A stretch of DNA of 51,487 nt from Candidatus Glassbacteria bacterium (GCA_046760905.1 JBHIFB010000003.1:1-51487), one strand, 5' to 3'; shown: positions 29,964-45,190, numbered from the stretch's first letter. A program made the numbers and translations. Notes: a model not told the origin generated them from the sequence alone.

Positions 29964-30893
29964 GTGAAGAAGACAGTGCTAATTGTAGATGATGAACCCC
30001 ACGTGATCCAGTCGATCAGGGCCGAGCTGGAATCCAATGGTTTCAGAGTTGTCGTTTCAACAAACGGGAAAAGTGCCCTCGATCTTGCCAAGAAGGTTAG
30101 ACCGGACCTGATACTTCTGGATATCCTGATGCCGAAGCTCTCGGGATTGGAGGTGTGTTCGAAGCTGAGGGAAGACTTCCTCACTGCCAGGATACCGATC
30201 GTTATCCTCACGGTTTTAAATGATACAAGGAAAAAAGTGATTGCCATAGATGGCGGGGCTGATGATTTCCTCACCAAGCCTTTCGACCCGGAAGAGGTTG
30301 TGGCGAGAATCAGGATGATAATCCGCAGGACAGAGACGAATCTCGGTTCCAATCCTCTGACGAGGCTGCCAGGCAATACGGAGATATACCGGGAGATAGA
30401 AATCAGGCTCAAATCGAGGAGGAAATTCGCGATGGCCTACCTCGACATAGATAACTTCAAAGCATTCGATGATATGTATGGATATGAGAAAGGGGACAAG
30501 GTTATTATCGAGACAGGGCTCATGGTACAGAGTGTCGTCGCCAGGCACGGGAATAAGAAAGATTTCATTGGCCATATCGGAGGAGATGATTTCGTTATAA
30601 TAACCACGCCTTCAAGAATCGAACAGATCTGCAAAGCCCTCATAGCCAGATTCGATGAGACGGTACCTACATTTTACAATAATGAGGACAGGAAGCGGGG
30701 TTACATCGAGTGTGAAGACAGGAGGGGGAATCTAAACCGGTTCCCGTTGCTCACTCTTTCCATTGGGGTTGTAACCAATGCCAGAAGGAAGCTCGTTTCT
30801 CATATACAGGTGGCTGAGATCGCGACAGAGATGAAGAACTACGCAAAGACCTTCAAGGGAAGCTCGTACAAAGTCGATAGGAGAAGGGAGTAA
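29964..30893 (+). CDS. Response regulator with a GGDEF-family domain carrying an atypical GGDDF motif
   Basis: Receiver motifs VLIVDDEPH and DLILLDILMPKLSG. Cyclase-like region NPLTRLPGN...YLDIDNFKAFDDMYGYEKGD...GHIGGDDFVII. The GGDDF codons are at 30579-30593. Confidence 0.8.
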   Translation: MKKTVLIVDDEPHVIQSIRAELESNGFRVVVSTNGKSALDLAKKVRPDLILLDILMPKLSGLEVCSKLREDFLTARIPIVILTVLNDTRKKVIAIDGGADDFLTKPFDPEEVVARIRMIIRRTETNLGSNPLTRLPGNTEIYREIEIRLKSRRKFAMAYLDIDNFKAFDDMYGYEKGDKVIIETGLMVQSVVARHGNKKDFIGHIGGDDFVIITTPSRIEQICKALIARFDETVPTFYNNEDRKRGYIECEDRRGNLNRFPLLTLSIGVVTNARRKLVSHIQVAEIATEMKNYAKTFKGSSYKVDRRRE

Positions 30894-30896
30894 ACG

Positions 30897-32942
30897 GTGC
30901 CAGTAAAGAGAAGGAGAAGGAGCCATAAGAGCACGGTCCATGCAGTGAGTTCTCCATCAGGTGAATCCCTCGCTGTCTATGGCTCATTCAGCTGTAACAG
31001 AGGAGACAGGATTGTCGCCCTTGATCGGGCAGGAGTTAAGATCCTTGGGCTCCCGGAATGTGCCGAGTATCGTGGACTTCATTTCAAAGATGTGTTTGGC
31101 GTTCGACCTTCGGAGAGGGAGAGGATACTCCGCTCGATGAAAGACGACTCAGGGCGATTCCTCGGTGAAGTGGCCATCTCCAGGCCTGATGGCAGTACGG
31201 GTGTCCTTCTTCTCAACGAGGTCTTCAAGAAGAGTGAGGATCAAATGGAGGGGGGTTCGGAGGGAACGTTCATCGATGTTACATCCGAAAGGAAGTGGGA
31301 AAAGGAGCTCTTTAACATAGCAAGAAACCTCGGTGGAACTCTTGATGAAGGGCAGATCATAGATAGGATTGCCCTTGACCTATCGCGTGTGACCGGCTTT
31401 GGCATTTGTTCTGTAGTGCTTTTTGACGAGGATGGAATAAAGATCCACACAAGGTCTCCTGTGAAGCTTGGAAAGGGAGTGCAGGAAGATCTCTCGAAGC
31501 AGATTTCCAATGGGATTGGAATATATCTCGAATATACAATGGAATCCTCAGATATGAAATTCGAAATAAAAATGTTGCCAGATATGCAGTCACTCGGCGT
31601 GAAAGGGAAGAAAAAGATAAGAACCCACCACATCATACCTCTTCTCGTTGGCTCTCAGATGGCTGGAATCGTACATCTCGGAAGTTTCACTCCGATTCTG
31701 CTCACCGAGAGGGACAAGGCGTCTCTGCTAACATGCTCATCCCCGATGGCCTTCGCTCTGCATAACGCCCGTTCCTTTGAAAAACAGAAAAAGCTCAATC
31801 AGATGAAGAGCGAATTTATCTCCAACGTCTCTCACGCTCTGAGAACACCCATGGCCACGATGAAGCAATGTATTTCACTCCTTTCGAGGGAAAGGGGAGG
31901 TCCGCTCACAAATATTCAGAGAAACTTCCTTGGAATGATTGAGGAGAATGTCGACAGGTTAACCGGGGTACTGAACAATCTTTTAGATCTTTCTAAGATC
32001 GAGCACGGTTCGATGGAGCTTAACAGAACCGAGACGGATATGGTTCTTCTGGTGAAATCCATCATTCGAAGCTTCGATCCCTTGATTAGAAGCAAGGGGA
32101 TAACATTCAGCTTCTCAACCAAACAATCTTCAATAAGTGCCTTTGTGGACGGCGAGATAATGCGCCAGATCATAGAAGGGCTACTGAGCAATGCGATAAA
32201 ATTCACCCCGCGCAAGAAGAGAATCGTACTCAAACTATCGACGAGTGCTAAAAGGGTTATGGTCTGTGTGAAAGATGAAGGCTGCGGGATGAGCAGGGAA
32301 AATCTAACGATGGTCTTCGATAAATACAGATCCTTCCAGAAGGGGATAAAGGCGGGTGTGAGAGGCACTGGCCTTGGACTGGCTCTCACGAAAGAGCTGG
32401 TCGAGCTTCACGGCGGGAAGATATGGATCGAGAGCGCTCCCAGGAAGGGCACGGAGGTAAGTTTCGTGATCCCGAGAATGCCATTTGCTTCAATAGTTCA
32501 GGAGAAGGTAAATCGATCGATGCAGCTTTGCAGGATCAAAGGTGAGGGGCTGATTCTCTTTTTGTACATTGCGAATCTTGATGGTCCCCCTCCCAGCTCT
32601 TCAAGGATCAGGAAGTTGAAAGAGCGGTTGAGCGACTACCTGGGTCCTGTCCTAGGCACGATCGAGGGTCAGATGATTATAGACGAGGAGGAGGAGAGGG
32701 TGGCGGTTCTGGCCCCCATAAAGAAGAGGAACAAGGAGAGCATAGAGAGAGCAGTCAGGAGTAGCTTCAAGGAACTGCTGCAGGAGGCAAAATCAGACGG
32801 CAATTCACTTTTTTCCTGGGCCTGTTATCCCGATGAGGGTGAGACTTTCTCTGAGCTTCTGGAAGCCCTGCTGGTCAGTGCCGGGATCGCCGGCAAGGAG
32901 ATTCACCTGAAGAAGAGAGGGGGCGATAAAAATGGAAGATGA
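30897..32942 (+). CDS. Soluble sensor histidine kinase: PAS, GAF-like, HisKA, HATPase, plus a 155-aa C-terminal extension
   Basis: H-box SHALRTPMATM and G2 box GTGLGLALTKELVELHGGKIW. The GTG start lies 3 nt after the upstream stop. Confidence 0.85.
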   Translation: MPVKRRRRSHKSTVHAVSSPSGESLAVYGSFSCNRGDRIVALDRAGVKILGLPECAEYRGLHFKDVFGVRPSERERILRSMKDDSGRFLGEVAISRPDGSTGVLLLNEVFKKSEDQMEGGSEGTFIDVTSERKWEKELFNIARNLGGTLDEGQIIDRIALDLSRVTGFGICSVVLFDEDGIKIHTRSPVKLGKGVQEDLSKQISNGIGIYLEYTMESSDMKFEIKMLPDMQSLGVKGKKKIRTHHIIPLLVGSQMAGIVHLGSFTPILLTERDKASLLTCSSPMAFALHNARSFEKQKKLNQMKSEFISNVSHALRTPMATMKQCISLLSRERGGPLTNIQRNFLGMIEENVDRLTGVLNNLLDLSKIEHGSMELNRTETDMVLLVKSIIRSFDPLIRSKGITFSFSTKQSSISAFVDGEIMRQIIEGLLSNAIKFTPRKKRIVLKLSTSAKRVMVCVKDEGCGMSRENLTMVFDKYRSFQKGIKAGVRGTGLGLALTKELVELHGGKIWIESAPRKGTEVSFVIPRMPFASIVQEKVNRSMQLCRIKGEGLILFLYIANLDGPPPSSSRIRKLKERLSDYLGPVLGTIEGQMIIDEEEERVAVLAPIKKRNKESIERAVRSSFKELLQEAKSDGNSLFSWACYPDEGETFSELLEALLVSAGIAGKEIHLKKRGGDKNGR

Positions 32943-33339
32943 GGGAATGAAGGGGAAAAAACTCCTCGTCGTGGAGGATGAAGCCGACCTCCGAGAAGCA
33001 ATAAAGTTCGATTTAGAAATGTCAGGATATGAGGTCTATTCGGCTGAGGATGGAATCAAAGGTCTGAAACTGGCAAGAGAGAAGAAACCGGACCTTTTGA
33101 TCCTTGATCTGCTCCTTCCGCGGATGGATGGTTACCGGGTGTGCAGGATGCTTAAGGTCGACGAAGAGACCGGAAAGCTACCGATAATCATGCTCACGGC
33201 CAAGGCCGGCAAGCAGGATGAAAAGTTGGGATTGGAATCCGGGGCCGATCTTTACATGACGAAACCATTCGAGCCAGAGAAACTCCTGGAGAATGTCAAA
33301 CTTTTAATACAGAGGACACTAAAAGAGAGGAAAAATTGA
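32932..33339 (+). CDS. Single-domain CheY-like response regulator
   Basis: LLVVEDEADL, DLLILDLLLPRMDG, IIMLTAK. Overlaps the kinase stop. The ATG at 32947 is an alternative start. Confidence 0.85.
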   Translation: MEDEGMKGKKLLVVEDEADLREAIKFDLEMSGYEVYSAEDGIKGLKLAREKKPDLLILDLLLPRMDGYRVCRMLKVDEETGKLPIIMLTAKAGKQDEKLGLESGADLYMTKPFEPEKLLENVKLLIQRTLKERKN

Positions 33340-33722
33340 AAAAGCGGATCCTTATCGTAGATGACGAACCATCGATACTGGAAACAATTAAGTTCCACCT
33401 CGAGATGAGTGAATATGAGGTGATACCTGCTTCCGATGGGATGGAAGCCCTGAAGCTGGCGAGAGCTGAAAACCCGGATCTCATACTACTCGATCTCATG
33501 CTGCCGCGGATTGATGGGTACAAGGTATGCAAGATGTTGAAAATGGATAGAAGGTTTCAGCGTATACCGGTGGTGATGCTGACGGCGAAAGCTGGATCGG
33601 TAGATGAAATAGAGGGTTATCAATCGGGGGCTGACGCATATCTGAAAAAGCCTTTTGACCTTGAAGCCCTGAGTTCGGTGGTTCAGGATATGCTCGAGAA
33701 GTGTCAGGGAAGCAAAAACTGA
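33336..33722 (+). CDS. Single-domain CheY-like response regulator, paralogue of the preceding gene
   Basis: ILIVDDEPSI, DLILLDLMLPRIDG, VVMLTAK. The TTG start overlaps the upstream TGA. Confidence 0.85.
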   Translation: MKKRILIVDDEPSILETIKFHLEMSEYEVIPASDGMEALKLARAENPDLILLDLMLPRIDGYKVCKMLKMDRRFQRIPVVMLTAKAGSVDEIEGYQSGADAYLKKPFDLEALSSVVQDMLEKCQGSKN

Positions 33723-33811
33723 TAGACACTGATGGAGCATCAAGATGAATTACCTTAGCCTCTTCGACTATTTGAAAGAGACCGGTATCCGGATTCGTGG
33801 GAGCCGTTCTG

Positions 33812-35503
33812 ATGAAACAGATTGAAAAAAAGATACTGGAATATGCAGCGAGGAATGAGCTTCTTAAGGATGATGATGTTAAGAGAGTCACCGAAGTCAG
33901 AGATGAAACGGGCGAAAATGTCGATCAGGTGATCATACGACTGGGTCTTGCTACGAAGGAACAGATATATGGCGTTTTGGAAGAAATGACAGGATATCCG
34001 ACAGTTGATCTGAGCCAGGTCTCTCTTGAGAAGGAGGTGCTCGAGCTCATACCCGAAGCTGTCGCAAGGAGGAACCAGGCCATTCCCCTTTTCAAGACAA
34101 AAGATTCCCTCGCTCTCGCAATGGTTGACCCATTGAACTTCGAAGCACTCGATAGCCTTCGGGCTGCAAGCGGGCTGACCATAGAGCCGTTTATCGCAGC
34201 ACCAACAGATGTTGGAAGGGCACTCGATCAGTATTACGGGGGCCGTCAGTCCATGGCCGAGCTCTTCGAGAGTAAACTTGAGAAACCGGGATTTGCTCCG
34301 CAAGAGGAAATACGCATTAAGGGCTTCGAAGACCAGAAAGAGACCTCTCCGGTCACACTGATCGTTAATAGACTCCTTCTGCAGGCCATCCGCGAGAATT
34401 CCAGTGATGTCCATATCGAACCATGGGGCGAAAGGTTAAGAGTAAGGTACAGGATAGACGGTATACTACACGATGTACCGGCCCCTAATCTAGAGGTATA
34501 CGAGGCCATCGTTTCGAGAGTGAAGATCCTTGGGGGAATGAATATAGCGGAGAAAAGAATTCCACAGGATGGAAGGGTGGACATCGTTGTTGATGGTCGG
34601 GAGGTCGGTCTCAGGCTCTCGACGTATCCCACTTATTTCGGAGAAAAAGTCGTGATAAGGATTCTCGATAAGGGCAAAGCCGTCACAGAGCTGATCTCCC
34701 TGGGCTTCAGGGGAGAGTCCTTGAGGAGATTCGAAAAGCTGATTCGGGAGCCGCATGGTGTCCTCCTCGTGACAGGGCCCACCGGTAGCGGGAAGACGAC
34801 CACCCTTTATGCGGTGCTCAACAAACTGAAAGGTGTCGATAAGAATATTCTCACGATAGAGGACCCCATTGAATATCAGATGGATCTCATCTGCCAATCC
34901 CAGGTTAATCCAAAGGCCGGCATGACCTTCGCTACAGGGTTGAGGGCGATTTTAAGGCAGGACCCCGATGTGATCATGGTCGGTGAGATAAGGGATACAG
35001 AAACGGCAGAGATCGCAATACATTCCGCTCTCACCGGACATTTAGTTCTGAGTACTCTTCATACCAACGATTCCTCAGGGGCGGTAGCAAGGTTAATAGA
35101 TATGGGGGTTGAGCCATTCCTCATTGCATCCTCACTGGTAGGCATCCTGGCGCAGAGGCTTGTCAGACTCGTTTGCCAGGAATGCAAGGAAGTTATTCTG
35201 CCGGATGATGAACTTCTGGGGAGAATAGGGATTCCCGAAAAGAAGGGTGATGTCGTGTTTTACAGGGGACAGGGATGCGGTGCCTGCAAGGGAACAGGCT
35301 ATAAGGGTAGGACGGGTATCTATGAAGTTCTCATAGTGGATAAGGAAATGAGGGAATTGATAGCCAGGGGTACTAGCTCTATGGGTGTGAGAGAACATGC
35401 TGTAAGAAGCGGAATGGTTTTACTGAGAGAAGACGGTTTGTCAAAGGCGCTCGAAGGAATCACATCCGTCGAAGAAGTGCTCAGAGTCACCGGATCGGAA
35501 TGA
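33812..35503 (+). CDS. Type IV filament assembly ATPase (GspE/PilB/MshE family)
   Basis: T2SSE_N-like N-domain, Walker A GPTGSGKTTTLYA, ILRQDPDVIMVGEIRD, and the tetracysteine motif CQECK...CGACKGTGYKGR. Confidence 0.9.
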   Translation: MKQIEKKILEYAARNELLKDDDVKRVTEVRDETGENVDQVIIRLGLATKEQIYGVLEEMTGYPTVDLSQVSLEKEVLELIPEAVARRNQAIPLFKTKDSLALAMVDPLNFEALDSLRAASGLTIEPFIAAPTDVGRALDQYYGGRQSMAELFESKLEKPGFAPQEEIRIKGFEDQKETSPVTLIVNRLLLQAIRENSSDVHIEPWGERLRVRYRIDGILHDVPAPNLEVYEAIVSRVKILGGMNIAEKRIPQDGRVDIVVDGREVGLRLSTYPTYFGEKVVIRILDKGKAVTELISLGFRGESLRRFEKLIREPHGVLLVTGPTGSGKTTTLYAVLNKLKGVDKNILTIEDPIEYQMDLICQSQVNPKAGMTFATGLRAILRQDPDVIMVGEIRDTETAEIAIHSALTGHLVLSTLHTNDSSGAVARLIDMGVEPFLIASSLVGILAQRLVRLVCQECKEVILPDDELLGRIGIPEKKGDVVFYRGQGCGACKGTGYKGRTGIYEVLIVDKEMRELIARGTSSMGVREHAVRSGMVLLREDGLSKALEGITSVEEVLRVTGSE

Positions 35504-35549: not shown

Positions 35550-36764
35550 ATGACAATGCCGATCTTTGAGTACACCGCTAGGGACATGGCCGGGAACAAA
35601 CTCACCGGTAAGATTGAGTCTTCCAGTCGCTCTCAGGCTCTGGATGAGCTGTCCAGAGGGGAACTGGTCCCTATCTCGGTTAAGAGGTCAAGACCGCTTG
35701 CCGATTTCTTACCCGTTGGCCGCAGGCGTATAAAGAAGGAAGAGATAATCATCTTCAGCAGGCAGCTCATGACCATGCTGAAAGCAGGGATAGGCCTTCT
35801 CTCCTGTTTGCATTCTCTCAGAAAACAGGCTGAGAACCCGGATATGAAGAAGACGATTGATGAAATATACACCGATGTTAGTGAGGGGAGTTCTCTTTCG
35901 GAGGCGCTTTCAAAGCACGCTGGTGTATTCAATGACGTCTATGTTAGCATGATTCGTGTTGGTGAAGAAGGCGGTGTCCTGGACGAAGTGCTCAATAGGC
36001 TTGTGATCCTACTCGAACACGAGGCTGAAACCAGGGCGGCTCTGAAGCAGGCTGTGCGATACCCCGCGATGGTAATCATAGGCTTGGCGATCAGTTTTGT
36101 CGTTGCCGTTGTTTTCGTCCTGCCAAAGTTCAGCAGCCTGTATAGCAGATATGAAGCGGATCTTCCTCTTCCCACCCGAATACTTCTCGGATTCAATGAC
36201 GCAGTAAATAGTTACGGACTCTGGATCGGCATTTCTATAGTAATTGTTATCTTCTTCATCCTCCTGGCGTTGAGAACCGAGGCGGGGAAAAGAAAATGGG
36301 ATGAGTACAAGCTCGTTCTGCCTGTCCTGGGACCGCTTTTTGTGAAGATAGCTGTCACGAGATTCGCCAGGATGTTCGCCACTCTGGATAAGTGCGGATT
36401 ACCGATATTGAGGAATCTTGAGATAGTTGCCGAGACAGTAGGGAATCTCGTTATTGCTCAGGAGATAATGAGACAGAGAGAGAGTGTGAGAGCTGGTAAG
36501 TCAGTTGCTGAACCCATCAAAGACAGCAGATATTTTCCCCCCCTTGTTTCAGAAATGATAATGATCGGAGAGGCTTCAGGTTCAATGGAAGAAGCACTTA
36601 ACGCGGTTTCTGATCATTATGACAGGGAAATAAGCTACGCCGTGAAAAATATGACGACGCTTATCGAACCAATCATAACTTTAATTATGGGCGTATTCGT
36701 GCTTTTCATGGCAGTTGCCGTATTTTTACCTATGTGGAAAATGTCTAGCGTTATACGGAAGTGA
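35550..36764 (+). CDS. Platform protein GspF/PilC
   Basis: 404 aa, two T2SSF-like repeats, three hydrophobic segments. Confidence 0.9.
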   Translation: MTMPIFEYTARDMAGNKLTGKIESSSRSQALDELSRGELVPISVKRSRPLADFLPVGRRRIKKEEIIIFSRQLMTMLKAGIGLLSCLHSLRKQAENPDMKKTIDEIYTDVSEGSSLSEALSKHAGVFNDVYVSMIRVGEEGGVLDEVLNRLVILLEHEAETRAALKQAVRYPAMVIIGLAISFVVAVVFVLPKFSSLYSRYEADLPLPTRILLGFNDAVNSYGLWIGISIVIVIFFILLALRTEAGKRKWDEYKLVLPVLGPLFVKIAVTRFARMFATLDKCGLPILRNLEIVAETVGNLVIAQEIMRQRESVRAGKSVAEPIKDSRYFPPLVSEMIMIGEASGSMEEALNAVSDHYDREISYAVKNMTTLIEPIITLIMGVFVLFMAVAVFLPMWKMSSVIRK

Positions 36765-36845
36765 TAAGACTGGAAAACAGCCCAATAAATCAAGGGCTTG
36801 AGCATGACCTGTGAACCTGAAGGACGGTTTAAACGATCATAAATC

Positions 36846-36861
36846 TGGCAAGTTTTTTGCA
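36846..36861 (+). promoter_or_regulatory. sigma54 (-24/-12) promoter candidate TGGCAAGTTTTTTGCA
   Basis: GG at 36847-36848 and GC at 36859-36860, at the exact consensus spacing. It matches YTGGCACGrNNNTTGCW at nearly all defined positions. It lies in the 308-nt gap before the pilin genes. Confidence 0.55.
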
Positions 36862-36901
36862 ATTATCGTCTTAGTGCCCTGATTTTGCATAGGCTTCGAT
36901 A

Positions 36902-36963: not shown

Positions 36964-37072
36964 TGACTCTGAACCAGATGCTGAGTATCCTAACCGATCT
37001 GCAGGTAAGCGGGAAATGTTCGTCTCCATCGATCTTCGTCACTTTTATCGAAACTCCTACTTCCACCGCGTT

Positions 37073-37961: not shown

Positions 37962-38479
37962 GATTTCTTATGCGGTCTAAACGGTCGGTTTTCAGGAATC
38001 AAGGATTCACACTCATGGAAGTAATCGTGGCGATGACCATAATATCGATCGTTGTTACAATGCTCACCGGGATATTCGTGACTAACGCTGATATATTCAG
38101 GTTCATCATCAGTTCAAGCGATGATATAGGTGAGCTCAGGCTTGCGGCCGGCAGGATGACTCTCGAGTTACGTTCTATAAAAGATAAAAAAAGCGTGAAG
38201 AAAGCAACCGAATCCAAAATCAATTTCATAAATAGCGAGGGTAGCAACATGAAAATAGAATATAGCGCAAAATCTGAGACGATAAAGCTGAACGGTAAAC
38301 AGCTGGCCGGTGAAATAGGTGATTTCCATCTGAAATACTACGATTCGTCCGGGAGTGAGCTGTCCAATCCCAAGACCAAGCCGGAAACTAATATCTGGAG
38401 TGTTGAGATCGAAATCGGAAGGTCCGGGCAGAATAATCTCAGGATCATCTCCCGGGCGTATCCGAGGAACTTCATATGA
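37958..38479 (+). CDS. Prepilin-type minor pseudopilin (GspJ/PilW-like)
   Basis: G/FTLMEVIVAMTIISIVV. Overlaps the upstream gene by 4 nt. Confidence 0.75.
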   Translation: MRFLMRSKRSVFRNQGFTLMEVIVAMTIISIVVTMLTGIFVTNADIFRFIISSSDDIGELRLAAGRMTLELRSIKDKKSVKKATESKINFINSEGSNMKIEYSAKSETIKLNGKQLAGEIGDFHLKYYDSSGSELSNPKTKPETNIWSVEIEIGRSGQNNLRIISRAYPRNFI

Positions 38480-39687
38480 GGAAGAGCACATCGCAGGATT
38501 TTAGAGTATCAGGCAGAAATGAACACGGGCAGACTGTGATCTTCGGCGTCTTCCTGCTGCTGATTTTCGCCGCCTACGGTGTCGTGATCGTGATGAACAT
38601 GGCAGAAGAGAGTTCTTCGGTAGCGTATGGATTCAGGGCGAGAGAGGCCGTTTATGCCGCAGAATCTGGTCTGGAATATGCAATAGAAGAGATAAAGGCA
38701 GGAATGAATAATGCGGGCAATATAAATGATCTGATGATCGGGGGTACGAGTGTGGATGTGAACAATGTGAACGACACCCTGCTTTCAGCCGTGGCCAAAA
38801 CTTCGGAGCCGGCCCTAACAAGAACAGTCGAACTGAGAATAGAGGTGAGCAGCCTTCCGGCCGCTTTGTTCTATGCGCTATATGTATCGAATCAGGGGAA
38901 TCTGAAATTGGAGGCGAAAACCACCATAGATGGAGATGTTCTCTTTAACGGCAATGATCTAAAAATCGGGAAAAAGATGTCTTTCAAGGAATCGGTGATC
39001 TTCGTTCCCCGTGTGGCATCCATTCAAAACAAAAGCGGGAAGCAAATTACACGGCATGACTATATGTACCTGGATGAACCTCCAGATGATTTCCCTGCCC
39101 TCGATACCGGTTATTACGATGCTTACATAGACAACCTATACGGGTATGAGAGTGTCGGACCTGTTATCAATAAAAAGACCAAGCTGAAGGACTTCGAGGA
39201 CAGTGTGCTCTACAGGGACGGAGACCTGGAGATCAAGGCGCAGGTCCAGGGGCCCGGCATAATCTGCGCCAGCGGAGATATCACCGTGGAGAAAAAGGTG
39301 AAGATCGGCCCCGATGTTCAGATGCTCTCCGGAGGAGAAATCGCCTTATCCAAAGGAAGGGTGACAAGTGGAAAGACCATTGCCTCGCTGCTTTTTGCCC
39401 GCGGTAAGGTGGAGCTTTCAGACGGTGCAAGAGTGACCGCCGCTGTCATCTCAACGGGGGATGTCAATTTAAAAAAAACCGTGAAACTAAAGGGAACCTG
39501 CTTTGTGTCCGGGTCGCTCAAGCTCGAGGGCGATTACAATATAGAGGGCAGTGTTGTTGCATCCCGCATCTCCAAGTTTAAAGGGAAGGGTAAAATAAAA
39601 TTTAACCAAGACAAACTGAATGATCTATCGATTCCGGGATTGAGCGGACGGCTCCGGGTGCTGCGTCGCGGATGGAGAGAGAGCTGA
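38476..39687 (+). CDS. Large PilX/GspK-like tip pseudopilin with a C-terminal beta-helix-like repeat region
   Basis: N-terminus HGQTVIFGVFLLLIFAAYGVVIV, which lacks Glu5 as in PilX/GspK. C-terminal repeats of the GDITVEKKVKIG / GEIALSKGRV / GDVNLKKTVKLKG type. Confidence 0.6.
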   Translation: MRKSTSQDFRVSGRNEHGQTVIFGVFLLLIFAAYGVVIVMNMAEESSSVAYGFRAREAVYAAESGLEYAIEEIKAGMNNAGNINDLMIGGTSVDVNNVNDTLLSAVAKTSEPALTRTVELRIEVSSLPAALFYALYVSNQGNLKLEAKTTIDGDVLFNGNDLKIGKKMSFKESVIFVPRVASIQNKSGKQITRHDYMYLDEPPDDFPALDTGYYDAYIDNLYGYESVGPVINKKTKLKDFEDSVLYRDGDLEIKAQVQGPGIICASGDITVEKKVKIGPDVQMLSGGEIALSKGRVTSGKTIASLLFARGKVELSDGARVTAAVISTGDVNLKKTVKLKGTCFVSGSLKLEGDYNIEGSVVASRISKFKGKGKIKFNQDKLNDLSIPGLSGRLRVLRRGWRES

Positions 39688-39733: not shown

Positions 39734-40558
39734 ATGGAATATTTTGAACTCATCAACCTTAGCAAGGAACCCTTCTCAACAACCCCGGATCCTGCTTTCT
39801 TCTATAAGCCCAGGGAGCACACGGAGTGTCTGCACCGTCTCGAACTATCACTCCGGTTGAAGAGAGGGCTGAACGTTATCCTTGGGGAGGTGGGGACGGG
39901 GAAAACCACACTTAGCAGGTTTTTTTTGAGAGATTTCAAAGACGATAACAGAGACTATGAGTTCTTTCTTATTATTGATCCGGCCTTCCAATCGGAGGGT
40001 GCATTCCTGAAGAGTCTCGCCGATATTATGGGAGTGAGTAAATATGGTAAATCTATGATAGACTGCAAGAATGCCATTAAGAATCATCTCTTCGACCTGG
40101 TTGTCGGAAGGGGTAAGACAATTGTGTTGTTCATAGACGAGGGACAGAACTTGAATTCGAAGAGCATTGAAGTGCTGAGGAACCTCCTGAACTATGAAAC
40201 GAATGAATACAAGATCATTCAGCTTGTCATACTTGCCCAGATGGAGTTCATGGATCTAATCAAAAGACATTGTAATTTCGCGGACAGGATAAATTTCACA
40301 CATGTACTTAACCCGCTTTCGCGGGAAGATACGAAGGAGATGATACGATATCGCCTGAGAAACGCGGGGCTGGACGAATCAAGGGAGCTTTTCGCGGAAG
40401 AAGCTCTCGATCTCATTTACAACCACTCATCAGGTTACCCGAGGAAAGTCACGATGATCTGCCACTGGGCGCTCATTAGCATGATAACGAGGGGAATGGA
40501 TGTGGTAAATGGAGATCTCGTACATGACGTGATTGGGAACGAATTGAGACTGGTATGA
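39734..40558 (+). CDS. ExeA/GspA/MshM-family AAA+ ATPase (ATPase domain only)
   Basis: YFELINLSKEPFSTTPDPAFFY, Walker A LGEVGTGKTTLSR, Walker B VLFIDEGQNL, GYPRKVTMIC. Confidence 0.8.
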   Translation: MEYFELINLSKEPFSTTPDPAFFYKPREHTECLHRLELSLRLKRGLNVILGEVGTGKTTLSRFFLRDFKDDNRDYEFFLIIDPAFQSEGAFLKSLADIMGVSKYGKSMIDCKNAIKNHLFDLVVGRGKTIVLFIDEGQNLNSKSIEVLRNLLNYETNEYKIIQLVILAQMEFMDLIKRHCNFADRINFTHVLNPLSREDTKEMIRYRLRNAGLDESRELFAEEALDLIYNHSSGYPRKVTMICHWALISMITRGMDVVNGDLVHDVIGNELRLV

Positions 40559-42435
40559 AATCAAAGTATGAAACAGACGCGATGGGCAAGTTGCTCTCCC
40601 TGATCCGGGGCGAAGACAACGAACCTTCAGCCGGTGGCGCCGATATAACCGGATCTTCGCCAGGGGAGAATAATTTCATGAGAAGATTTCATTCGAGAGC
40701 CCTAAAGCTTCTCTCGAGAGTCGATTCTTCCAAGAGGTACGGAGTTGGTGTGGATTTCGGTTCATTCTCTATGAAATTCTCCGTTCTGGAGTTTAACAAC
40801 GGCAAAGGCATTATGCGGGATTCGCGGATCATGGAAAGGGGAAAGCGGGGCGAAGAGGAGGTTGCCGGCGATTGTATCAAAGCTCTGACAGAGAGCCTAA
40901 AACGGGTAGTCGGAAAGTGGTCATACAGGGATGTTCCAGTGTATCTGGCTATCTCAGACAGGAAGGTGCTGGTTAAGAGAGTTTTTTTGCCGAAAATGCC
41001 GGTCAGGGAGATCCGGAAGGCATTGGCACTAAAGCTCGAGAACGAGATCGAACTTGCTTCGGATAGAGTGGTGATAGGGTTTCGTTTAAATCGCGGAAAG
41101 AATGAGGGAGATGAGAAAAATTATGAAGTAACGGTTGCAGCCGCGAGTTCTGATTTTCTAGAGGAGATGATAAGGCCTTTCGAAGAAGCGGGATTCACTG
41201 ATATAAGACCTGTTTCGGCGTCCATGATATATGGTGACATGCTGAACACAACGATACCCTCTATGCTTGTCGACATTGGGTTAATGAGGACCGGCCTGTA
41301 CATCACTTCAGGGGGCATATCCCATCTTTACAGGGAAATCGGCATCGGTGGGCAGAACTTCACACGGAGCCTAACGGGCCGTTTCTCCTATTCCAAGGGT
41401 GTGCTGGAGTTTGATGAGGAAGTGGCAGAGAATATGAAGAGGAAATACGGTGTATCCAGGGAGAAGCTGGAGGAGGATGAATATAAAGACGAAGCAACAT
41501 CACATATTCCAATAATACTGAGGCCCCTGGTTGACAAGCTGTCGGATGAAATAAAAAGAACCGTGGAGCATGCATCCTCTTCACTCCGAATCGTTCCCAG
41601 AAAACTCATCCTTGTTGGTGGTGGTTCTTCCATGCCGGGTCTAGCAGAGCATCTTGGAAGTCAGCTTGAGTTGGAGGTGAAGTCCGCCGACCATTCCGAT
41701 TTCAGGTGGGAGGTGAGTTGTACATCAAAAGAATCTATTCGCTTCCACGAGATAGCCATGGCGGTTGAAGTGGCCTTATGGAAAGGAAACAACGAACTAC
41801 TCATCCCATCGGAGTACAAGTGGCGAAGAAGGTCGCACTTTGAAAGGAAAGCCTTCAGGTACGCTTCCCTCCTCTCGACAGCTTTGATTGTTTTCTTTTC
41901 CATTCTTGGCAAAGATATTGTAGCCGAGTCAAAAGGGAATGCAGTTCTGATCGATTCCGGTAAACTAATGACGATGGAATTGGGAGGCGACGCACAGAAA
42001 CTTGGCATGGAGAGGAAACAACTGAACCAGTGGAAGAAAATGTTGAACATAAGGTTGCCTGATGGGCCTGACATGGTGGCCATACTGAAAGAGCTCTCGA
42101 ATATTATACCGAACTATATTCTGTTGACGAGACTCGAGGTGATTCCTGAGGCAATGCGGGAATCAGATGAATCGGCGTCATTAGCTGGGGAAATGTCCGA
42201 AGAGGTGGAGGAGACCGAAAAAAAGAATCGATTTCTGGTATTGATGGATGGGCTGGTTATCGCAGAACCACTTTTCCAGGAAGCGTATCTGTCCAAATTC
42301 AACCTGATCCTCAACAAATCAGGATTCTTTGATAGAACGAGGATAATGTCATGGGAGAGAGTGAAGGAAAAAGACATGGAGCGTCTCTCGTTCTCCATTT
42401 CCTGTAGGTTGGGCGATTGGGCGGGAGAAGGCTAG
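40555..42435 (+). CDS. PilM-PilN fusion (GspL-like bitopic assembly protein)
   Basis: Actin-like ATPase region (VGVDFGSFSMKFSV ... LILVGGGSSMPGLAEHL), one transmembrane segment (ASLLSTALIVFFSILG), and a periplasmic tail of about 170 aa. Confidence 0.65.
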   Translation: MKSKYETDAMGKLLSLIRGEDNEPSAGGADITGSSPGENNFMRRFHSRALKLLSRVDSSKRYGVGVDFGSFSMKFSVLEFNNGKGIMRDSRIMERGKRGEEEVAGDCIKALTESLKRVVGKWSYRDVPVYLAISDRKVLVKRVFLPKMPVREIRKALALKLENEIELASDRVVIGFRLNRGKNEGDEKNYEVTVAAASSDFLEEMIRPFEEAGFTDIRPVSASMIYGDMLNTTIPSMLVDIGLMRTGLYITSGGISHLYREIGIGGQNFTRSLTGRFSYSKGVLEFDEEVAENMKRKYGVSREKLEEDEYKDEATSHIPIILRPLVDKLSDEIKRTVEHASSSLRIVPRKLILVGGGSSMPGLAEHLGSQLELEVKSADHSDFRWEVSCTSKESIRFHEIAMAVEVALWKGNNELLIPSEYKWRRRSHFERKAFRYASLLSTALIVFFSILGKDIVAESKGNAVLIDSGKLMTMELGGDAQKLGMERKQLNQWKKMLNIRLPDGPDMVAILKELSNIIPNYILLTRLEVIPEAMRESDESASLAGEMSEEVEETEKKNRFLVLMDGLVIAEPLFQEAYLSKFNLILNKSGFFDRTRIMSWERVKEKDMERLSFSISCRLGDWAGEG

Positions 42436-42439: not shown

Positions 42440-43024
42440 ATGAAGGCATTATGGCGAAGTATCCTCATTCATGCCCTGTTCCTCGGGTTGCTACTTGGCT
42501 TTTTCTATGTATTCCAGCTCGCTGCACAGAGAGAAGAGGTGGATAAGTTCAACAGACAGGTGGAGGATAAGGTCCAGGGGATTGAGGAGAGCATTAAAGT
42601 CCTGGAGGAGATTTCGGGTGGGGATGGTACAATGTCGAGGCTCCGTGAAGAAATCGAAATGCTGAAGGGGAGATTCGTACCGTATGAGCTACTGGAGGAG
42701 GTATCATGGGAACTCGCGGATTTGGCGAAAGAAGCGGGACTCAACCCTACGAGGATAATTCCTCCAATGGGGAGAGAGGGGGAAGAAGTTGAGCGGGACA
42801 CTGAATCCGGACTCATCATGGAAAAACTGCCGATAGTAATCGAGATGAATGGGGAGTTTCTGAAATACGGTCAGTTTCTCCAGACCCTTGAGCATTTCCC
42901 GTACCATGTTGTCGTCAAGGAGCTTGTCATATCATCAGAAGAGCCTGATGGATTACATCTGTCTATAAAGACAGAGTTCAGCGTCTTTTCCATAAGCGAG
43001 GATACAATCGATGCAGCTGGATAG
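42440..43024 (+). CDS. PilO/GspM-like bitopic protein
   Basis: N-terminal transmembrane segment ILIHALFLGLLLGFFYVF, a coiled coil, and a C-terminal ferredoxin-like region. Position is after PilM-N. Confidence 0.5.
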   Translation: MKALWRSILIHALFLGLLLGFFYVFQLAAQREEVDKFNRQVEDKVQGIEESIKVLEEISGGDGTMSRLREEIEMLKGRFVPYELLEEVSWELADLAKEAGLNPTRIIPPMGREGEEVERDTESGLIMEKLPIVIEMNGEFLKYGQFLQTLEHFPYHVVVKELVISSEEPDGLHLSIKTEFSVFSISEDTIDAAG

Positions 43025-43484
43025 GAGCTTCAAATCAAACAAGAAACTCACAGTCATATTCATGATTGTGATGATAATTGGAGTTTGGGGCATGGTGGCG
43101 AGGCGGTCGAAGGCGAAGAAGAAGCACGTGGCATCAGGTTTCGAACAGGATATAGTGGCTCCGATAGAGTTCCCCGTCGCTGAGCCTTCAACAGGCTCCT
43201 CAACCGGTGATTCGAACATCAGCTTCCACGAAGAATGGGGAAGAGATCCCTTCAAGATCATCAGGGTGAGTTCTAAACCAGGAGAAAAGGCCTCATCTCA
43301 AGGAAATGATAATCCGAGTTTCGTTCTCACAGCGATACTCACAGATGGCAGAATAGCCTCTGCAGTGATAAACGGAGAGGTGTGTTCACTCGGGCAGACG
43401 ATTTCCGGATACCTGATTGTCGATATATCACCTGATAGAGTGATACTTAGGAAGGATAATAGAAGGTTGATATTAAAGCTCTGA
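43011..43484 (+). CDS. PilP/GspC-like protein (tentative)
   Basis: One transmembrane segment. The C-terminus ASAVINGEVCSLGQTISGYLIVDISPDRVILRKDNRRLILKL resembles the secretin-interacting beta-domain. Confidence 0.4.
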   Translation: MQLDRSFKSNKKLTVIFMIVMIIGVWGMVARRSKAKKKHVASGFEQDIVAPIEFPVAEPSTGSSTGDSNISFHEEWGRDPFKIIRVSSKPGEKASSQGNDNPSFVLTAILTDGRIASAVINGEVCSLGQTISGYLIVDISPDRVILRKDNRRLILKL

Positions 43485-45190
43485 TGGGAGAAGGTATGAT
43501 CGTGAGGATTATAAGAGTGATTCGAAGGTTCAGCTGGTCGCTTTTGATAGTTTCTGCCTTTGCGGCTGGGGCCGCGGGCATGGATGAGGCCAGTCTGGTG
43601 AAGATAGAAGGCGTTCAGGCGAGGGGGGAAGGCGATTCTCTCATGGTGCTCATAGAACTCTCCCGTCCAGTTGAAGTCCGCGATTTTACTCTTACCGATC
43701 CACCCAGGATAGTCCTGGATTTTCCTGGGACAGTGACAACGGGAAAGATGCAGATTTTGAGTGTGAGCGACGGGACCCTGCGAGCAGTTAGATGGGCACA
43801 GATGAGTATCGAGCCTCTCATAGCGAGGGTAGTCCTCGATGTGGACTATGCAGCAGGCGAGATACCGAAATATCATATTCTATCAAAGGGTAACCGGGTG
43901 GCTATTGTTTGTGATGGGGGCATGTCTCGGTCCTGTGAGGATCCAGCGCTAGGCGGTGTTGAGGAAGACAGGGACAGGATAACCATGACGTTCAAAGACG
44001 CTGATATCGAGTCGGTGCTTAGGCTGTTGTCTGAGAACTACGGCCTGAACATAATATCCGATGGGAAGCTCGACCGCACTGTTACAACCAAGCTGGAAGG
44101 GGTCACAATAGATGAGGCACTGTCTGCCATAGTCAGGGCGAACGGATATAATTACGTGAGGCAGGGTGACATCATAATAGTAAAGGAGGATCTCGGTGGA
44201 AAAAAGGACATGGTGACCAGGGTATTCAAACTCGACTATATAGATGCAGATGCATTCAGGCAGGCATGCTCCAGGCTTGTCTCGAAGGAGGGAAGTATCG
44301 AAAGCTTCTCGAGACACCTTCTGGAGAAACCAGAAGGCGTGCTCTGGAATGAAAAGATTTTCAGGGACAGAAAGGACATTCTACTGGTGACTGATTACCC
44401 CGATGTGATTTCTGTGATCGAGAGCATGGTGGAAGAGCTCGATGCCCCTGTGCCGCAGGTTATGATAGAGGTGAAGTTCATAGAGAGGACATTGAGTGAA
44501 TCGGATGATCTTGGTATTAACTGGAATATAGACGCCGAATTCAGCGGAGAGCCACCCATTGATCCACAGCTTTTGTCTCAATTCGGTGGAACAGGAGAAA
44601 TATATATTCCGAACAAGGTGTTCAAGGAGGGTGATTTCACATTCGGTCAGCTCAAACTGGATCGGTTCAGTGCCATTCTGCAGCTCATCGAGCAGTCGGG
44701 GAAAGCAAAACTCCTCTCGAATCCGAAAATCGTCACACTCGATAATCACGAGGCAAGAATCACGGTGGGAACCAAGATACTCATACCTATAAGGGAAAGG
44801 GGAACGGCTTCTGATGTAATACTCGAGTCCTTCGAGGAAATGGATATCGGAATCAGCCTCTCGGTTATACCCCACGTCCACAGAAATGGCGATGTGACTC
44901 TTCAGATCCAGCCGAGAGTTGAAGAAATCACAGGGTATACGGGAGAATTCCTGGATCGTCCCATAATTGCAGAGAGGACAGCCACGACTCAGATCAAGGT
45001 AAAAGACGGCGAGACCATAGCGATTGGCGGCTTAATAAGGGAGTCTGATGTTGAGACCGTCCGGAGGGTACCGGTCCTTGGGAGGATACCCTTGATAAAG
45101 TATTTGTTTACACACAAGTCCAAGAGGATGGAGAAAACCGACTTGCTAATATTTATCACACCGGAGTTGATGACTGGAGATAGGGGGTAA
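43484..45190 (+). CDS. Secretin (PilQ/GspD family) with an N-terminal AMIN domain
   Basis: AMIN-like PPRIVLDFPG, secretin N-domains, and the C-terminal VPVLGRIPLIKYLF. Its ATG shares one base with the upstream TGA. Confidence 0.9.
   Translation: MGEGMIVRIIRVIRRFSWSLLIVSAFAAGAAGMDEASLVKIEGVQARGEGDSLMVLIELSRPVEVRDFTLTDPPRIVLDFPGTVTTGKMQILSVSDGTLRAVRWAQMSIEPLIARVVLDVDYAAGEIPKYHILSKGNRVAIVCDGGMSRSCEDPALGGVEEDRDRITMTFKDADIESVLRLLSENYGLNIISDGKLDRTVTTKLEGVTIDEALSAIVRANGYNYVRQGDIIIVKEDLGGKKDMVTRVFKLDYIDADAFRQACSRLVSKEGSIESFSRHLLEKPEGVLWNEKIFRDRKDILLVTDYPDVISVIESMVEELDAPVPQVMIEVKFIERTLSESDDLGINWNIDAEFSGEPPIDPQLLSQFGGTGEIYIPNKVFKEGDFTFGQLKLDRFSAILQLIEQSGKAKLLSNPKIVTLDNHEARITVGTKILIPIRERGTASDVILESFEEMDIGISLSVIPHVHRNGDVTLQIQPRVEEITGYTGEFLDRPIIAERTATTQIKVKDGETIAIGGLIRESDVETVRRVPVLGRIPLIKYLFTHKSKRMEKTDLLIFITPELMTGDRG

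What the first reader, a model, noticed from the sequence alone, without database searches (positions are those of the whole stretch)
29964..45190. Composite type IV filament locus with mixed T2SS, T4P and MSHA traits, wired to a c-di-GMP/two-component module and missing core parts
About 15 kb of same-strand genes with overlapping or very short junctions. The one exception is the 308-nt gap at 36765-37072. Gene order is:
1. receiver-GGDDF cyclase
2. PAS-GAF kinase
3. two CheY-like receivers
4. GspE/PilB ATPase
5. GspF/PilC
6. GspH-like pseudopilin
7. GspI-like pseudopilin
8. GspJ-like pseudopilin
9. large GspK/PilX-like pseudopilin
10. ExeA/MshM-like AAA+ ATPase
11. PilM-PilN fusion (GspL-like)
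12. PilO/GspM-like
13. PilP/GspC-like
14. AMIN-domain secretin

The E-F-H-I-J-K-L-M-C-D order is T2SS-like. The AMIN secretin and the PilM/N/O/P parts are T4aP-like. The ExeA/MshM ATPase is an MSHA/ExeAB trait. I do not see a GspG/PilA-type major subunit, a prepilin peptidase or a PilT-type retraction ATPase. This could be a minor-pilin-only secretion or DNA-uptake pseudopilus, or a filament class not yet described.
Basis: partly seen in the sequence, partly recalled or inferred. Interest (0 to 1): 0.65.

Follow-up and report, generated by a model that had tools for sequence, protein, structure and literature searches.

The report
Third pilus machine with built-in signalling
This is a real, intact third type IV filament (pilus-like) gene cluster in a genome that already has an ordinary type IV pilus and an ordinary type II secretion system; its "missing" parts are encoded elsewhere in the genome, and it belongs to a little-known lineage of such machines that carry their own two-component switch.

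Summary
**Observation.** It holds.

**"Missing core parts."** This is largely explained. The genome has one prepilin peptidase, three PilT-like ATPases and four major-type pilin genes on other contigs. It also has a complete T4aP and a complete T2SS. The locus is therefore a third system that depends on parts supplied in trans.

**Classification.**
- No component reaches NCBIfam's cut-off for GspE, PilB, GspD, PilQ or MshL.
- The ATPase lies outside the well-supported MSH, proteobacterial GspE and PilB groups.
- It groups weakly (support 71/79) with ATPases of loci that share the order kinase, receiver, receiver, ATPase, platform, pilins, PilM-N fusion, PilO, PilP-like, secretin.
- In the phylum, only this order has the system (6 of 401 genomes).

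**Family-specific features.**
- The first pilin is GspH-like with a conserved Met5.
- The fourth pilin is a ComZ-like tip pilin with a beta-solenoid (AlphaFold2 pLDDT 86).
- An exported ComEC-type MBL protein follows the secretin.
- The pilin genes have a sigma-54-type promoter.
- The ATPase has lost the c-di-GMP-binding motifs that its relatives keep.

**Verdict.** This is a new variant of a known kind. Its function (adhesion, DNA capture or secretion) is inferred, not shown.

The parts
29964..30893 (+). Receiver + divergent GGDEF domain protein (motif GGDDF; FDD where relatives keep YND)
   Evidence: Pfam Response_reg 103 bits. GGDEF 52.6 bits, covering profile positions 5-114 of 161. Sequence. 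79-83% identical in family loci and 52% in the sister family.
30897..32942 (+). Cytoplasmic sensor histidine kinase (weak GAF, HisKA, HATPase_c, unassigned 155-aa tail)
   Evidence: Present in family loci (53-62% identity), absent from sister-family loci. Syntenic kinases occur in L058 and L060.
32932..33339 (+). CheY-like single-domain receiver
   Evidence: Pfam Response_reg 94.9 bits. 49.6% identical to the receiver next to the ATPase in L060.
33336..33722 (+). CheY-like single-domain receiver
   Evidence: Pfam Response_reg 100.7 bits. 48.8% identical to L058 RR2.
33797..35503 (+). Extension ATPase (PilB/GspE/MshE superfamily) with a degenerate N-terminal MshEN/GSPII domain
   Evidence: T2SSE 453.8 bits, MshEN 84 bits. 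GspE 615.9 (<630.25) and PilB 599.9 (<675.65). Walker A, Walker B, His box and tetracysteine motifs are visible. c-di-GMP motif score 8/22. Trees.
35550..36764 (+). Inner-membrane platform protein (GspF/PilC family)
   Evidence: T2SSF 190 bits. GspF 345 (<424) and PilC 301 (<700).
36846..36861 (+). Sigma-54-type -24/-12 promoter TGGCAAGTTTTTTGCA ahead of the pilin genes
   Evidence: Identical in G001 and similar in G002. The genome has 61 such motifs, and 7 of them lie before type IV filament genes. Absent in L062, where pilin 1 overlaps the platform gene.
37073..37546 (+). Pilin 1: GspH/FimT-family pilin with Met at +5 (G|FSLIM)
   Evidence: Pfam GspH 27.5 bits. Met5 is conserved in G001, G002 and L062. 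The C-terminus reads TGRVSY, not the GRxR of DNA-binding FimT (PMC8897410).
37560..37961 (+). Pilin 2: small GspI-position minor pilin, Glu5
   Evidence: N_methyl. 30.6% identical over 111 aa to pilin 2 of L058.
37958..38479 (+). Pilin 3: GspJ-position minor pilin, Glu5
   Evidence: N_methyl 34 bits. Weak ComGF hit, 31 bits.
38476..39687 (+). Pilin 4: ComZ-like tip pilin (N-terminal helix without Glu5, small pilin sheet, beta-solenoid)
   Evidence: AlphaFold2 mean pLDDT 86, pTM 0.76. Best Foldseek PDB hit is Thermus ComZ 6qvi, E 2.6e-5, TM only 0.24-0.32. Ice-binding beta-solenoids follow. This is the same domain pair as described for ComZ (PMC6561018).
39707..40558 (+). ExeA/MshM-type AAA+ ATPase with the ATPase domain only (no TM helix, no peptidoglycan-binding domain)
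   Evidence: AAA_22 55.8 bits. TIGR03015 164 bits (<324.5). 34% identical to the Aeromonas ExeA N-domain and 30% to Aeromonas MshM. Present in L057 and the sister family, absent in G001, G002 and L062.
40555..42435 (+). PilM-PilN-type fusion with GspL/MshI-like topology
   Evidence: PilM_2 62.8 bits. Single TM helix at 433-457. Five 50%-identity clusters at E<1e-30 and 522 at E<1e-10.
42440..43024 (+). PilO/GspM-position bitopic protein
   Evidence: Weak PilO hit, E 0.006. N-terminal TM helix at 3-30. The counterpart in G003 hits PilO at E 3.4e-8.
43011..43484 (+). PilP/GspC-position bitopic protein
   Evidence: Weak T2SSB/CdsD_C hits. TM helix at 11-33. 31-32% identical to its counterparts in L058 and L060.
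43484..45190 (+). Outer-membrane secretin with an AMIN domain (PilQ-like architecture)
   Evidence: Secretin 159 bits, AMIN 32.9, STN 34.1. GspD 214.5, PilQ 209.7 and MshL 139.3, all below cut-off. Best in-genome match is the own PilQ, 166 bits over residues 43-560.
45459..46682 (+). Associated, family-specific: exported stand-alone ComEC-type metallo-beta-lactamase domain protein (HxHxDH intact)
   Evidence: PDB ComEC chains match at E 5e-19 to 7e-18 over residues 123-381. TIGR00361 72 bits against its C-terminal part. Conserved after the secretin in G001 (53%), G002 (44%) and L062. Absent in the sister family.

Best explanation
**What it is.** The locus encodes a third, intact, envelope-spanning type IV filament machine. 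Its parts are:
- an extension ATPase and a platform protein;
- a GspL-like PilM-PilN fusion, a PilO-like protein and a PilP/GspC-like protein;
- an AMIN-secretin;
- its own four-pilin priming or tip set. This is a GspH-like pilin with Met5, two small Glu5 pilins and a ComZ-like beta-solenoid tip pilin.

**What it borrows (inferred).** It is not self-sufficient.
- It would use the genome's single prepilin peptidase.
- It most probably uses a major pilin encoded elsewhere. Candidates are the family-specific orphan pilin on contig C137, which has a sigma-54-type motif, and the PilA paralogues on C41 and C129.
- Retraction, if any, would need a PilT encoded in trans.

**How it is probably controlled (inferred).** Assembly is gated at the motor by the conserved upstream module of kinase, receiver-GGDEF and two CheY-like receivers. 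In related systems the ATPase keeps a canonical c-di-GMP-binding MshEN site. In this family that site has decayed, so control here is more likely by phosphorylated receivers than by c-di-GMP.

**Evolutionary placement.** It belongs to a lineage of the T4aP/T2SS/MSH radiation that none of the curated T2SS, T4aP or MSH models tested here recognises.

**Likely function (inferred).** My best guess, at about 55%, is a surface pilus that binds a polymeric substrate through its beta-solenoid tip. DNA is the leading candidate substrate, because of the ComZ-like tip and the exported ComEC-type MBL protein next to the secretin.
For: **Shown: the parts are present and intact.**
- All parts are present and open, and the catalytic motifs are intact.

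**Shown: the rest of the genome supplies what the locus lacks.**
- A complete T2SS lies on C61, with T2SSG, K, M and C Pfam hits as a positive control.
- A T4aP lies on C105, C106 and C165.
- There is one PilD, on C138, and there are three PilT-like ATPases.
- Orphan pilins lie on C41, C129 and C137.

**Shown: the system is conserved and extra.**
- All five relatives in the order also have three PilB/GspE-type ATPases.
- Synteny, including the signalling genes, holds in G001, G002, L062, G003, G004, L058 and L060.
- The full-length PilM-N homologue occurs in 6 of 401 genomes of the phylum, all in this order.

**Shown: placement of the ATPase.**
- It lies outside the MSH clade (100/100), the proteobacterial GspE clade (100/100) and the PilB group.
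- It groups with the syntenic loci at support 71/79.
- It is 50.5% identical to the L060 ATPase.

**Shown: family-specific features.**
- MshEN motif scores are 8/22 here, 19-20/22 in the sister family and 20/22 in Aeromonas MshE. The L058 and L060 ATPases show the canonical motifs by eye.
- Sigma-54 motifs lie before pilin 1 and before the C137-type pilin in three genomes.
- Full-length orthologues of the C137-type pilin occur only in this family.
- Pilin 4 resembles ComZ (PMC6561018).
- The downstream protein is a ComEC-type MBL.
Against:
- The major pilin is not identified.
  - The C137 pilin is not a reciprocal best match of the in-locus pilin of the sister family.
  - The slot-1 pilin of L058 matches C41 best.
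  - No shared upstream motif beyond the -24/-12 element was found.
- The ATPase backbone is unresolved. AU tests do not reject a sister relation to MSH (p 0.18), T2SS (p 0.34) or PilB (p 0.43).
- The similarity to ComZ is low in TM-score (0.24-0.32).
- The FimT GRxR DNA-binding motif is not present in pilin 1.
- The relatives L058 and L060 sit next to Che clusters, not DNA-related genes. The DNA reading therefore rests on family-specific additions only.
Confidence: 0.62

Rival explanations
1. It is a second, divergent type II secretion system. A short periplasmic pseudopilus is built on the H-I-J-K-like set, possibly borrowing GspG from the canonical T2SS. It pushes an exoprotein through the secretin. 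The adjacent exported ComEC-type MBL protein would be the obvious cargo.
For: - The gene order E-F-H-I-J-K-L-M-C-D can be read directly from the sequence.
- Pilin 1 carries a GspH domain.
- The ATPase scores slightly higher for GspE than for PilB, 615.9 against 599.9.
- It is 49.5% identical to the own GspE.
- The genome's canonical T2SS also uses a PilM+PilN fusion as its GspL.
- An exported MBL protein is conserved directly downstream.
Against: - There are no T2SSG, T2SSK, T2SSM or T2SSC hits, while the own T2SS gives them.
- The GspE and GspD cut-offs are not reached.
- The ATPase has a PilB/MshE-type N-terminal GSPII domain, and the secretin has a PilQ-like AMIN architecture.
- The ATPase lies outside the proteobacterial GspE clade.
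- The relatives have a PilA-like pilin in slot 1 and adjacent Che clusters.
Confidence: 0.2
2. It is a rearranged MSHA-type pilus. That would be a single-locus adhesive pilus with an MshE-like c-di-GMP-gated ATPase, MshM, an MshI-like fusion and a loner mshA.
For: - It shares features that Denise et al. list for MSH (PMC6668835): a single locus, no prepilin peptidase, an MshM-type ATPase and mshA allowed as a loner.
- The ATPase has an MshEN domain.
- A GGDEF gene is adjacent.
- A Legionella MSH-like locus also carries four pilins and no obvious MshA.
Against: - The ATPase is only 37.5% identical to Aeromonas MshE, against 49-50% to GspE-type ATPases.
- It lies outside the 100/100 MSH clade.
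- MshL scores 139.3, below the 250.2 cut-off and below the GspD and PilQ scores.
- The AAA+ protein is nearer to ExeA than to MshM.
- There is no MshN, MshF, MshO, MshP or MshQ.
- The c-di-GMP motif is degenerate here.
Confidence: 0.08
3. It is a minor-pilin-only machine. The four locus pilins form the whole (pseudo)filament, a short plug or tip complex with no major subunit.
For: - No major-type pilin lies in any of the four family loci.
- Two of the four pilins lack Glu5.
- In L062 pilin 1 is translationally coupled to the platform gene.
Against: - The genome carries four major-type pilin genes outside the locus. One of them is restricted to exactly this family and has a sigma-54-type motif like the locus pilins.
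- The nearest syntenic relatives have a normal Glu5 pilin in slot 1.
- In established T2SS and T4P biology, minor-pilin complexes prime a major-subunit fibre rather than replace it.
Confidence: 0.08

Closest known systems
Type II secretion system (Gsp/Xcp/Exe)
   Same: - Gene order ATPase, platform, H-, I-, J- and K-position pilins, L-like fusion, M-position, C-position, secretin.
- A GspH-domain pilin.
- A tip pilin without Glu5.
- The ATPase is 49-50% identical to GspE-type ATPases.
   Different: - No GspG in the locus.
- No T2SSK, T2SSM or T2SSC signatures.
- ATPase and secretin score below the GspE and GspD cut-offs.
- The ATPase has a GSPII/MshEN N-domain.
- The secretin has an AMIN domain.
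- A dedicated kinase/receiver module lies upstream.
- The genome already has a canonical T2SS.
Type IVa pilus (PilBCMNOPQ, FimU-PilVWX minor pilins)
   Same: - ATPase domain layout.
- AMIN-secretin, aligned over its full length to PilQ.
- PilM_2 domain.
- A four-member core minor-pilin set.
- Sigma-54-type promoter before the pilin genes.
- Parts spread over several loci (PilD, PilT, pilin).
   Different: - One compact operon.
- PilM and PilN are fused.
- PilB and PilQ cut-offs are not reached.
- No PilT or PilA in the locus.
- An ExeA/MshM-type ATPase is present.
- The first pilin has Met5.
MSHA pilus (Vibrio/Aeromonas msh locus)
   Same: - Single locus without a prepilin peptidase or retraction ATPase.
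- An MshM-type AAA+ protein.
- A bitopic protein in the MshI (PilM/PilN) position.
- An MshEN domain on the ATPase.
- A link to c-di-GMP genes.
   Different: - Different ATPase clade.
- MshL is not matched.
- Different gene order.
- No MshN, F, O, P or Q.
- No MshA in the locus.
- The c-di-GMP motifs are degenerate in this family.
Thermus thermophilus competence pilin set (PilA1-3, ComZ)
   Same: - A tip pilin made of a pilin-like domain plus an ice-binding-protein-like beta-solenoid.
- It is encoded after three small minor pilins.
   Different: - Only fold-level similarity (TM 0.24-0.32, 12-15% identity).
- 403 aa here, against about 500-520 residues in the solved ComZ chains.
- DNA binding is untested.
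- The Thermus genes serve the T4aP machine, not a separate one.
Unnamed syntenic loci L058 (GCA_043821115.1) and L060 (wood metagenome)
   Same: - Same order: kinase, two receivers, MshEN-ATPase, platform, pilins, PilM-N fusion, PilO, PilP-like, secretin.
- The ATPases are 49-51% identical.
- The receivers are about 49% identical.
   Different: - They keep the canonical c-di-GMP motifs.
- They have a normal Glu5 PilA-like pilin in slot 1.
- Their secretins lack an AMIN domain.
- They have no MBL gene.
- They are followed by a Che cluster.

Membership tests
T2SS | ATPase is a GspE equivalog (TIGR02533 at or above 630.25 bits) | tested here: not met
   615.9 bits. The genome's own GspE scores 679.9.
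T2SS | Major pseudopilin GspG (Pfam T2SSG) belongs to the system | tested here: not met
   None of the four locus pilins hits T2SSG. The own GspG on C61 scores 133 bits.
T2SS | GspK, GspM and GspC signatures (T2SSK, T2SSM, T2SSC) | tested here: not met
   No hits in the locus. The control T2SS on C61 hits T2SSK_1st, T2SSK, T2SSM_b and T2SSC.
T2SS | Secretin is a GspD equivalog (TIGR02517 at or above 351.35 bits) | tested here: not met
   214.5 bits. The own GspD scores 413.
T2SS | ATPase falls in the GspE clade | tested here: inconclusive
   It lies outside the 100/100 proteobacterial GspE clade. The AU test does not reject a sister position (p 0.34). The reference set was small.
T4aP | ATPase is a PilB equivalog (TIGR02538 at or above 675.65 bits) | tested here: not met
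   599.9 bits. The own PilB scores 744.1.
T4aP | PilQ-type secretin (TIGR02515 at or above 284.35 bits) | tested here: not met
   209.7 bits, although it aligns to positions 2-427 of the model and has an AMIN domain. The own PilQ also scores below the cut-off, at 252.3.
T4aP | Separate PilM, PilN, PilO and PilP alignment proteins | tested here: not met
   PilM and PilN are fused in one 626-aa protein with one TM helix. PilO and PilP are only weakly recognisable.
T4aP | Dedicated major pilin PilA and retraction ATPase PilT | tested here: inconclusive
   None in the locus. Candidates lie in trans on C41, C129, C137 and C105, and PilT-like genes lie on C105, C2 and C26. No assignment is possible.
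MSH | MshE-clade ATPase | tested here: inconclusive
   37.5% identical to Aeromonas MshE. It lies outside the 100/100 clade of MshE plus the Legionella MSH-like ATPase. The AU test does not reject a sister position (p 0.18).
MSH | MshL secretin (TIGR02519 at or above 250.2 bits) | tested here: not met
   139.3 bits.
MSH | MshM present (mandatory in the TXSScan MSH model, PMC6668835) | tested here: inconclusive
   An ExeA/MshM-type AAA+ gene is present. It is nearer to Aeromonas ExeA (34%, 142 bits) than to MshM (30%, 119 bits). It is missing in three of the family loci.
MSH | Canonical c-di-GMP-binding MshEN motifs in the ATPase | tested here: not met
   8/22 key positions, against 20/22 in Aeromonas MshE and 19-20/22 in the sister family. 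The motif is as given in PMC11731258.
MSH | TXSScan MSH profiles and quorum | not testable with these tools
   The MacSyFinder/TXSScan models are not available here.
ComZ-type tip pilin | Pilin-like domain plus inserted beta-solenoid; binds DNA | tested here: inconclusive
   The fold is met. The AF2 model has pLDDT 86, the top Foldseek hit is 6qvi at E 2.6e-5 and ice-binding folds come next. TM is only 0.24-0.32. DNA binding cannot be tested here.

The most novel reading that the evidence does not exclude
Two linked claims are not excluded by the evidence.

1. The locus stands for an unnamed subtype of type IV filament machine. The subtype is defined by a built-in kinase, two CheY-like receivers (and often a GGDEF protein) ahead of the ATPase, and by a PilM-N fusion.
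2. In this bacterial family the subtype has been re-tooled into a dedicated machine for capturing extracellular DNA.
   - A Met5 GspH-fold pilin occupies the major-pilin slot.
   - A ComZ-like beta-solenoid sits at the tip.
   - A secreted ComEC-type nuclease works beside the secretin.
   - Control has shifted from c-di-GMP to phosphorelay.
Probability: 0.2. Interest if true: 0.7.

Novelty: new variant of a known kind. Interest (0 to 1): 0.48.

Why it matters
- Type IV filament machines are usually sorted into a few named classes, and many "generic" ones remain unplaced.
- This locus gives a concrete, conserved example with clear hallmarks. It has its own two-component module at the motor, a fused alignment protein and swappable pilin sets.
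- It also offers a natural comparison between relatives that keep the ATPase's c-di-GMP site and relatives that have lost it. That comparison could show how control of pilus motors is rewired.
- If the ComZ-like tip and the exported ComEC-type domain really act on DNA, this would be a DNA-handling filament separate from the cell's ordinary type IV pilus.

Tried and rejected
2. **Word-based homologue search.** A search with PilM-N found only itself and one distant protein. The full HMMER search was needed.
3. **Rfam.** Nothing at the gathering threshold in the window. Only a chance-level hit in the 308-nt gap. No c-di-GMP riboswitch.
4. **Shared activator sites.** I looked for shared upstream sites between the pilin-1 promoter and the C137 pilin promoter. 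No shared 9-mers were found.
5. **C137 pilin as orthologue of the sister family's in-locus pilin.** Rejected, because it is not a reciprocal best hit.
6. **Pilin 1 as a FimT-type DNA receptor.** The GRxR motif is not met.
7. **Sister family's short pilin as GspG.** Only 18.5 bits, below the cut-off.
8. **AU tests to place the ATPase.** None of the alternatives was rejected.
9. **PilT as outgroup.** It distorted the tree through its long branch. I rebuilt the tree without it.
11. **Organism name.** The organism's name could not be obtained with the tools.

Full report
**1. Observation**

The window is the whole of contig C3 of a draft genome of 3.33 Mb in 249 contigs, 99.9% complete.
- The kinase shows HisKA, HATPase_c and a weak GAF, but no PAS hit.
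- The GGDEF match is partial, covering profile positions 5-114 of 161, and the motif reads GGDDF.

The PilM-like protein has one transmembrane helix at 433-457, followed by a periplasmic tail of about 170 aa. This is the GspL/MshI topology. The ATPase keeps its Walker A, Walker B, His-box and tetracysteine motifs. The flanking genes are housekeeping genes, so this is not an island.

**2. The 'missing' parts are in the genome**

| Part | Location |
|---|---|
| Prepilin peptidase (the only one) | C138 |
| Three PilB/GspE-type ATPases | C105, C61, C3 |
| Three PilT-like ATPases | C105, C2, C26 |
| Full T2SS (E, F, G, H, I, J, K, L, M, C-like, D) | C61 |
| pilB-pilT-pilC-pilS-pilA | C105 |
| pilMNOPQ | C106 |
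| fimT-like, pilV, pilW, pilX | C165 |
| Major-type pilins outside any machine locus | C41, C129 (PilA paralogues), C137 (a distinct 118-aa pilin) |

The T2SS on C61 gives T2SS-specific Pfam hits, which serves as a positive control. The locus is therefore a third system that relies on shared parts. Published MSH loci likewise lack a prepilin peptidase, and the MSH model allows mshA as a loner (PMC6668835).

**3. Classification**

| Component | Scores for the locus protein | Cut-offs | Own reference proteins |
|---|---|---|---|
| ATPase | GspE 615.9, PilB 599.9 | 630.25, 675.65 | Own GspE 679.9, own PilB 744.1 |
| Platform | GspF 345 | 424 | |
| Secretin | GspD 214.5, PilQ 209.7, MshL 139.3 | 351.35, 284.35, 250.2 | Own GspD 413 (scores) |

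For named references I used an Aeromonas caviae chromosome that PLSDB files as a plasmid. Its msh and exe loci were recognised by gene order. I added records from Legionella, Neisseria, Pseudomonas, E. coli and other organisms.

ATPase identities are 37.5% to MshE, 50% to ExeE, 49.5% to the own GspE and 43% to the own PilB.

In maximum-likelihood trees:
- the window's family forms a 100/100 clade (f1: window, G001, G002);
- the sister family forms a 100/100 clade (f2: G003-G005);
- both lie outside the MSH clade (100/100), the proteobacterial GspE clade (100/100) and the PilB pair.

The backbone is unresolved. AU tests reject no sister relation, with p between 0.18 and 0.43.

**4. Relatives and a wider lineage**

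- The full-length PilM-N homologue occurs in the two other genera of the family (42% and 38% identity) and in three genera of the sister family (22-26%). It occurs in no other of 401 sampled genomes of the phylum.
- Among 1.84 billion representative proteins, only 5 clusters reach E<1e-30. There are 522 at E<1e-10, many of them PilM-N fusions of 520-960 aa.
- Two of these lie in loci with the same order: kinase, receiver, receiver, MshEN-ATPase, platform, pilins, PilM-N, PilO, PilP-like, secretin (L058 and L060). One also has a GGDEF gene.
- Their ATPases are the window's nearest outside its family, at 49-51% identity.
- They group with f1 and f2 at support 71/79.
- Their receivers are about 49% identical to the window's.
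- A further family locus, L062, is syntenic from the divergent PAS/kinase genes through to the downstream iron-transport genes.

**5. What varies**

- *Pilins.* f1 has four: a GspH-like pilin with G|FSLIM, two small Glu5 pilins and a 391-454-aa protein. Met5 is conserved in all four f1 loci. f2 has only two pilins, and L058 and L060 have a normal Glu5 PilA-like pilin in slot 1.
- *ExeA/MshM-type gene.* It is present in the window, L057 and f2. It is absent in G001, G002 and L062.
- *AMIN domain.* It is found in f1 secretins but not in f2, L058 or L060.
- *c-di-GMP motif.* On the MshEN motif (PMC11731258), f2 scores 19-20/22. Aeromonas MshE scores 20/22 and the own PilB scores 18/22. L058 and L060 show the canonical motifs by eye. 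The window and G001 score 8/22 and G002 scores 10/22, like the GspE-type ATPases. The c-di-GMP site therefore looks ancestral in this lineage and lost in this family.

**6. Pilin 4 and the downstream gene**

- An AlphaFold2 model from six homologues has mean pLDDT 86 and pTM 0.76. It shows a long N-terminal helix, a small sheet and a beta-solenoid.
- The best Foldseek PDB hits are Thermus ComZ (E 2.6e-5, probability 1.0, TM 0.24-0.32), followed by ice-binding beta-solenoids.
- This is the domain pair described for ComZ. ComZ is a GspK-like tip pilin that binds DNA together with PilA2 (PMC6561018).
- The gene after the secretin encodes a stand-alone ComEC-type MBL domain. It has an intact HxHxDH motif and a hydrophobic N-terminus.
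- That gene is conserved in all f1 loci and absent in f2.
- Pilin 1 lacks the GRxR motif of DNA-binding FimT (PMC8897410).

**7. Regulation**

- A sigma-54-type motif, TGGCAAGTTTTTTGCA, lies in the gap at 36846. It is conserved in G001 and G002.
- The genome has 61 such motifs. Seven of them precede type IV filament genes, including TGGCAGGTTTTTTGC before the C137 pilin.
- Full-length orthologues of the C137 pilin (72-76% identity) exist only in f1.
- This co-occurrence comes from a single clade, so it is weak evidence.
- No activator gene is in the window.

**8. Reading**

Shown:
- This is an intact, conserved third machine.
- It depends on parts supplied in trans.
- It lies outside the curated T2SS, T4aP and MSH definitions.
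- It shares synteny with other loci, and its ATPase groups weakly with theirs.

Inferred:
- The receivers control the motor.
- c-di-GMP control has been lost in this family.
- A major pilin supplied in trans is used.
- The beta-solenoid tip binds a polymer, possibly DNA.

It is best filed as a new variant of a known kind.

Noticed in passing
window 45459-46682: This is a stand-alone ComEC-type metallo-beta-lactamase domain protein. It has an intact HxHxDH motif and a hydrophobic N-terminus. It is conserved directly after the secretin in all four family loci but not in the sister family.
   Followed up: partly
window 29833 (minus strand), before the PAS gene 28512-29843: A second sigma-54-type motif, TGGCATATATTTTGC, faces the divergent PAS / kinase / receiver operon. 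The same 15 bases occur at the same place in G001 (L022:16995) and L062 (1698).
   Followed up: partly
window 36890-36950: A conserved leader element lies downstream of the promoter in the 308-nt gap. It contains TCCAGGGTC twice and is nearly identical in G001. It is absent in L062, where pilin 1 overlaps the platform gene. No Rfam family matches it.
   Followed up: partly
genome contig C61:8748-10235: The canonical T2SS of this genome also uses a 495-aa PilM_2 + PilN fusion in the GspL position. The fusion is therefore not special to the third system.
   Followed up: yes
genome contigs C137:1111-1467, C41:10729-11208, C129:2242-2715: Three major-type pilin genes lie outside any machine locus. 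The genes on C137 and C41 have sigma-54-type motifs upstream. The C137 type has full-length orthologues only in this family, at 72-76% identity.
   Followed up: partly
window 29964-30893 and L024:5349-6290: The receiver-GGDEF protein has GGDDF and a His in place of the Arg before GG, in both families. The window has FDD where the sister family keeps YND. Cyclase activity is uncertain.
   Followed up: no
L058:14491-21731 and L060:14560-21764: The nearest syntenic relatives outside the order carry a chemosensory cluster directly after the secretin. It comprises CheW, MCP or CheR, CheY, CheB, CheA and a second PilM-like protein of 712-722 aa.
   Followed up: no
L041 (NZ_LR134433.1 257543-268967, Legionella adelaidensis): This is an MSH-like locus. 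It has four pilins, PilM-like, PilN, two unknown genes, MshL, an AAA ATPase, one unknown gene and a GspE/PulE ATPase. No platform gene is in view. Its ATPase groups with Aeromonas MshE at 100/100.
   Followed up: partly
L029/L039/L040 (NZ_AP026896.1): PLSDB lists a 4.94-Mb Aeromonas caviae chromosome as a plasmid. It was useful as a source of msh, exe and exeAB reference loci.
   Followed up: yes
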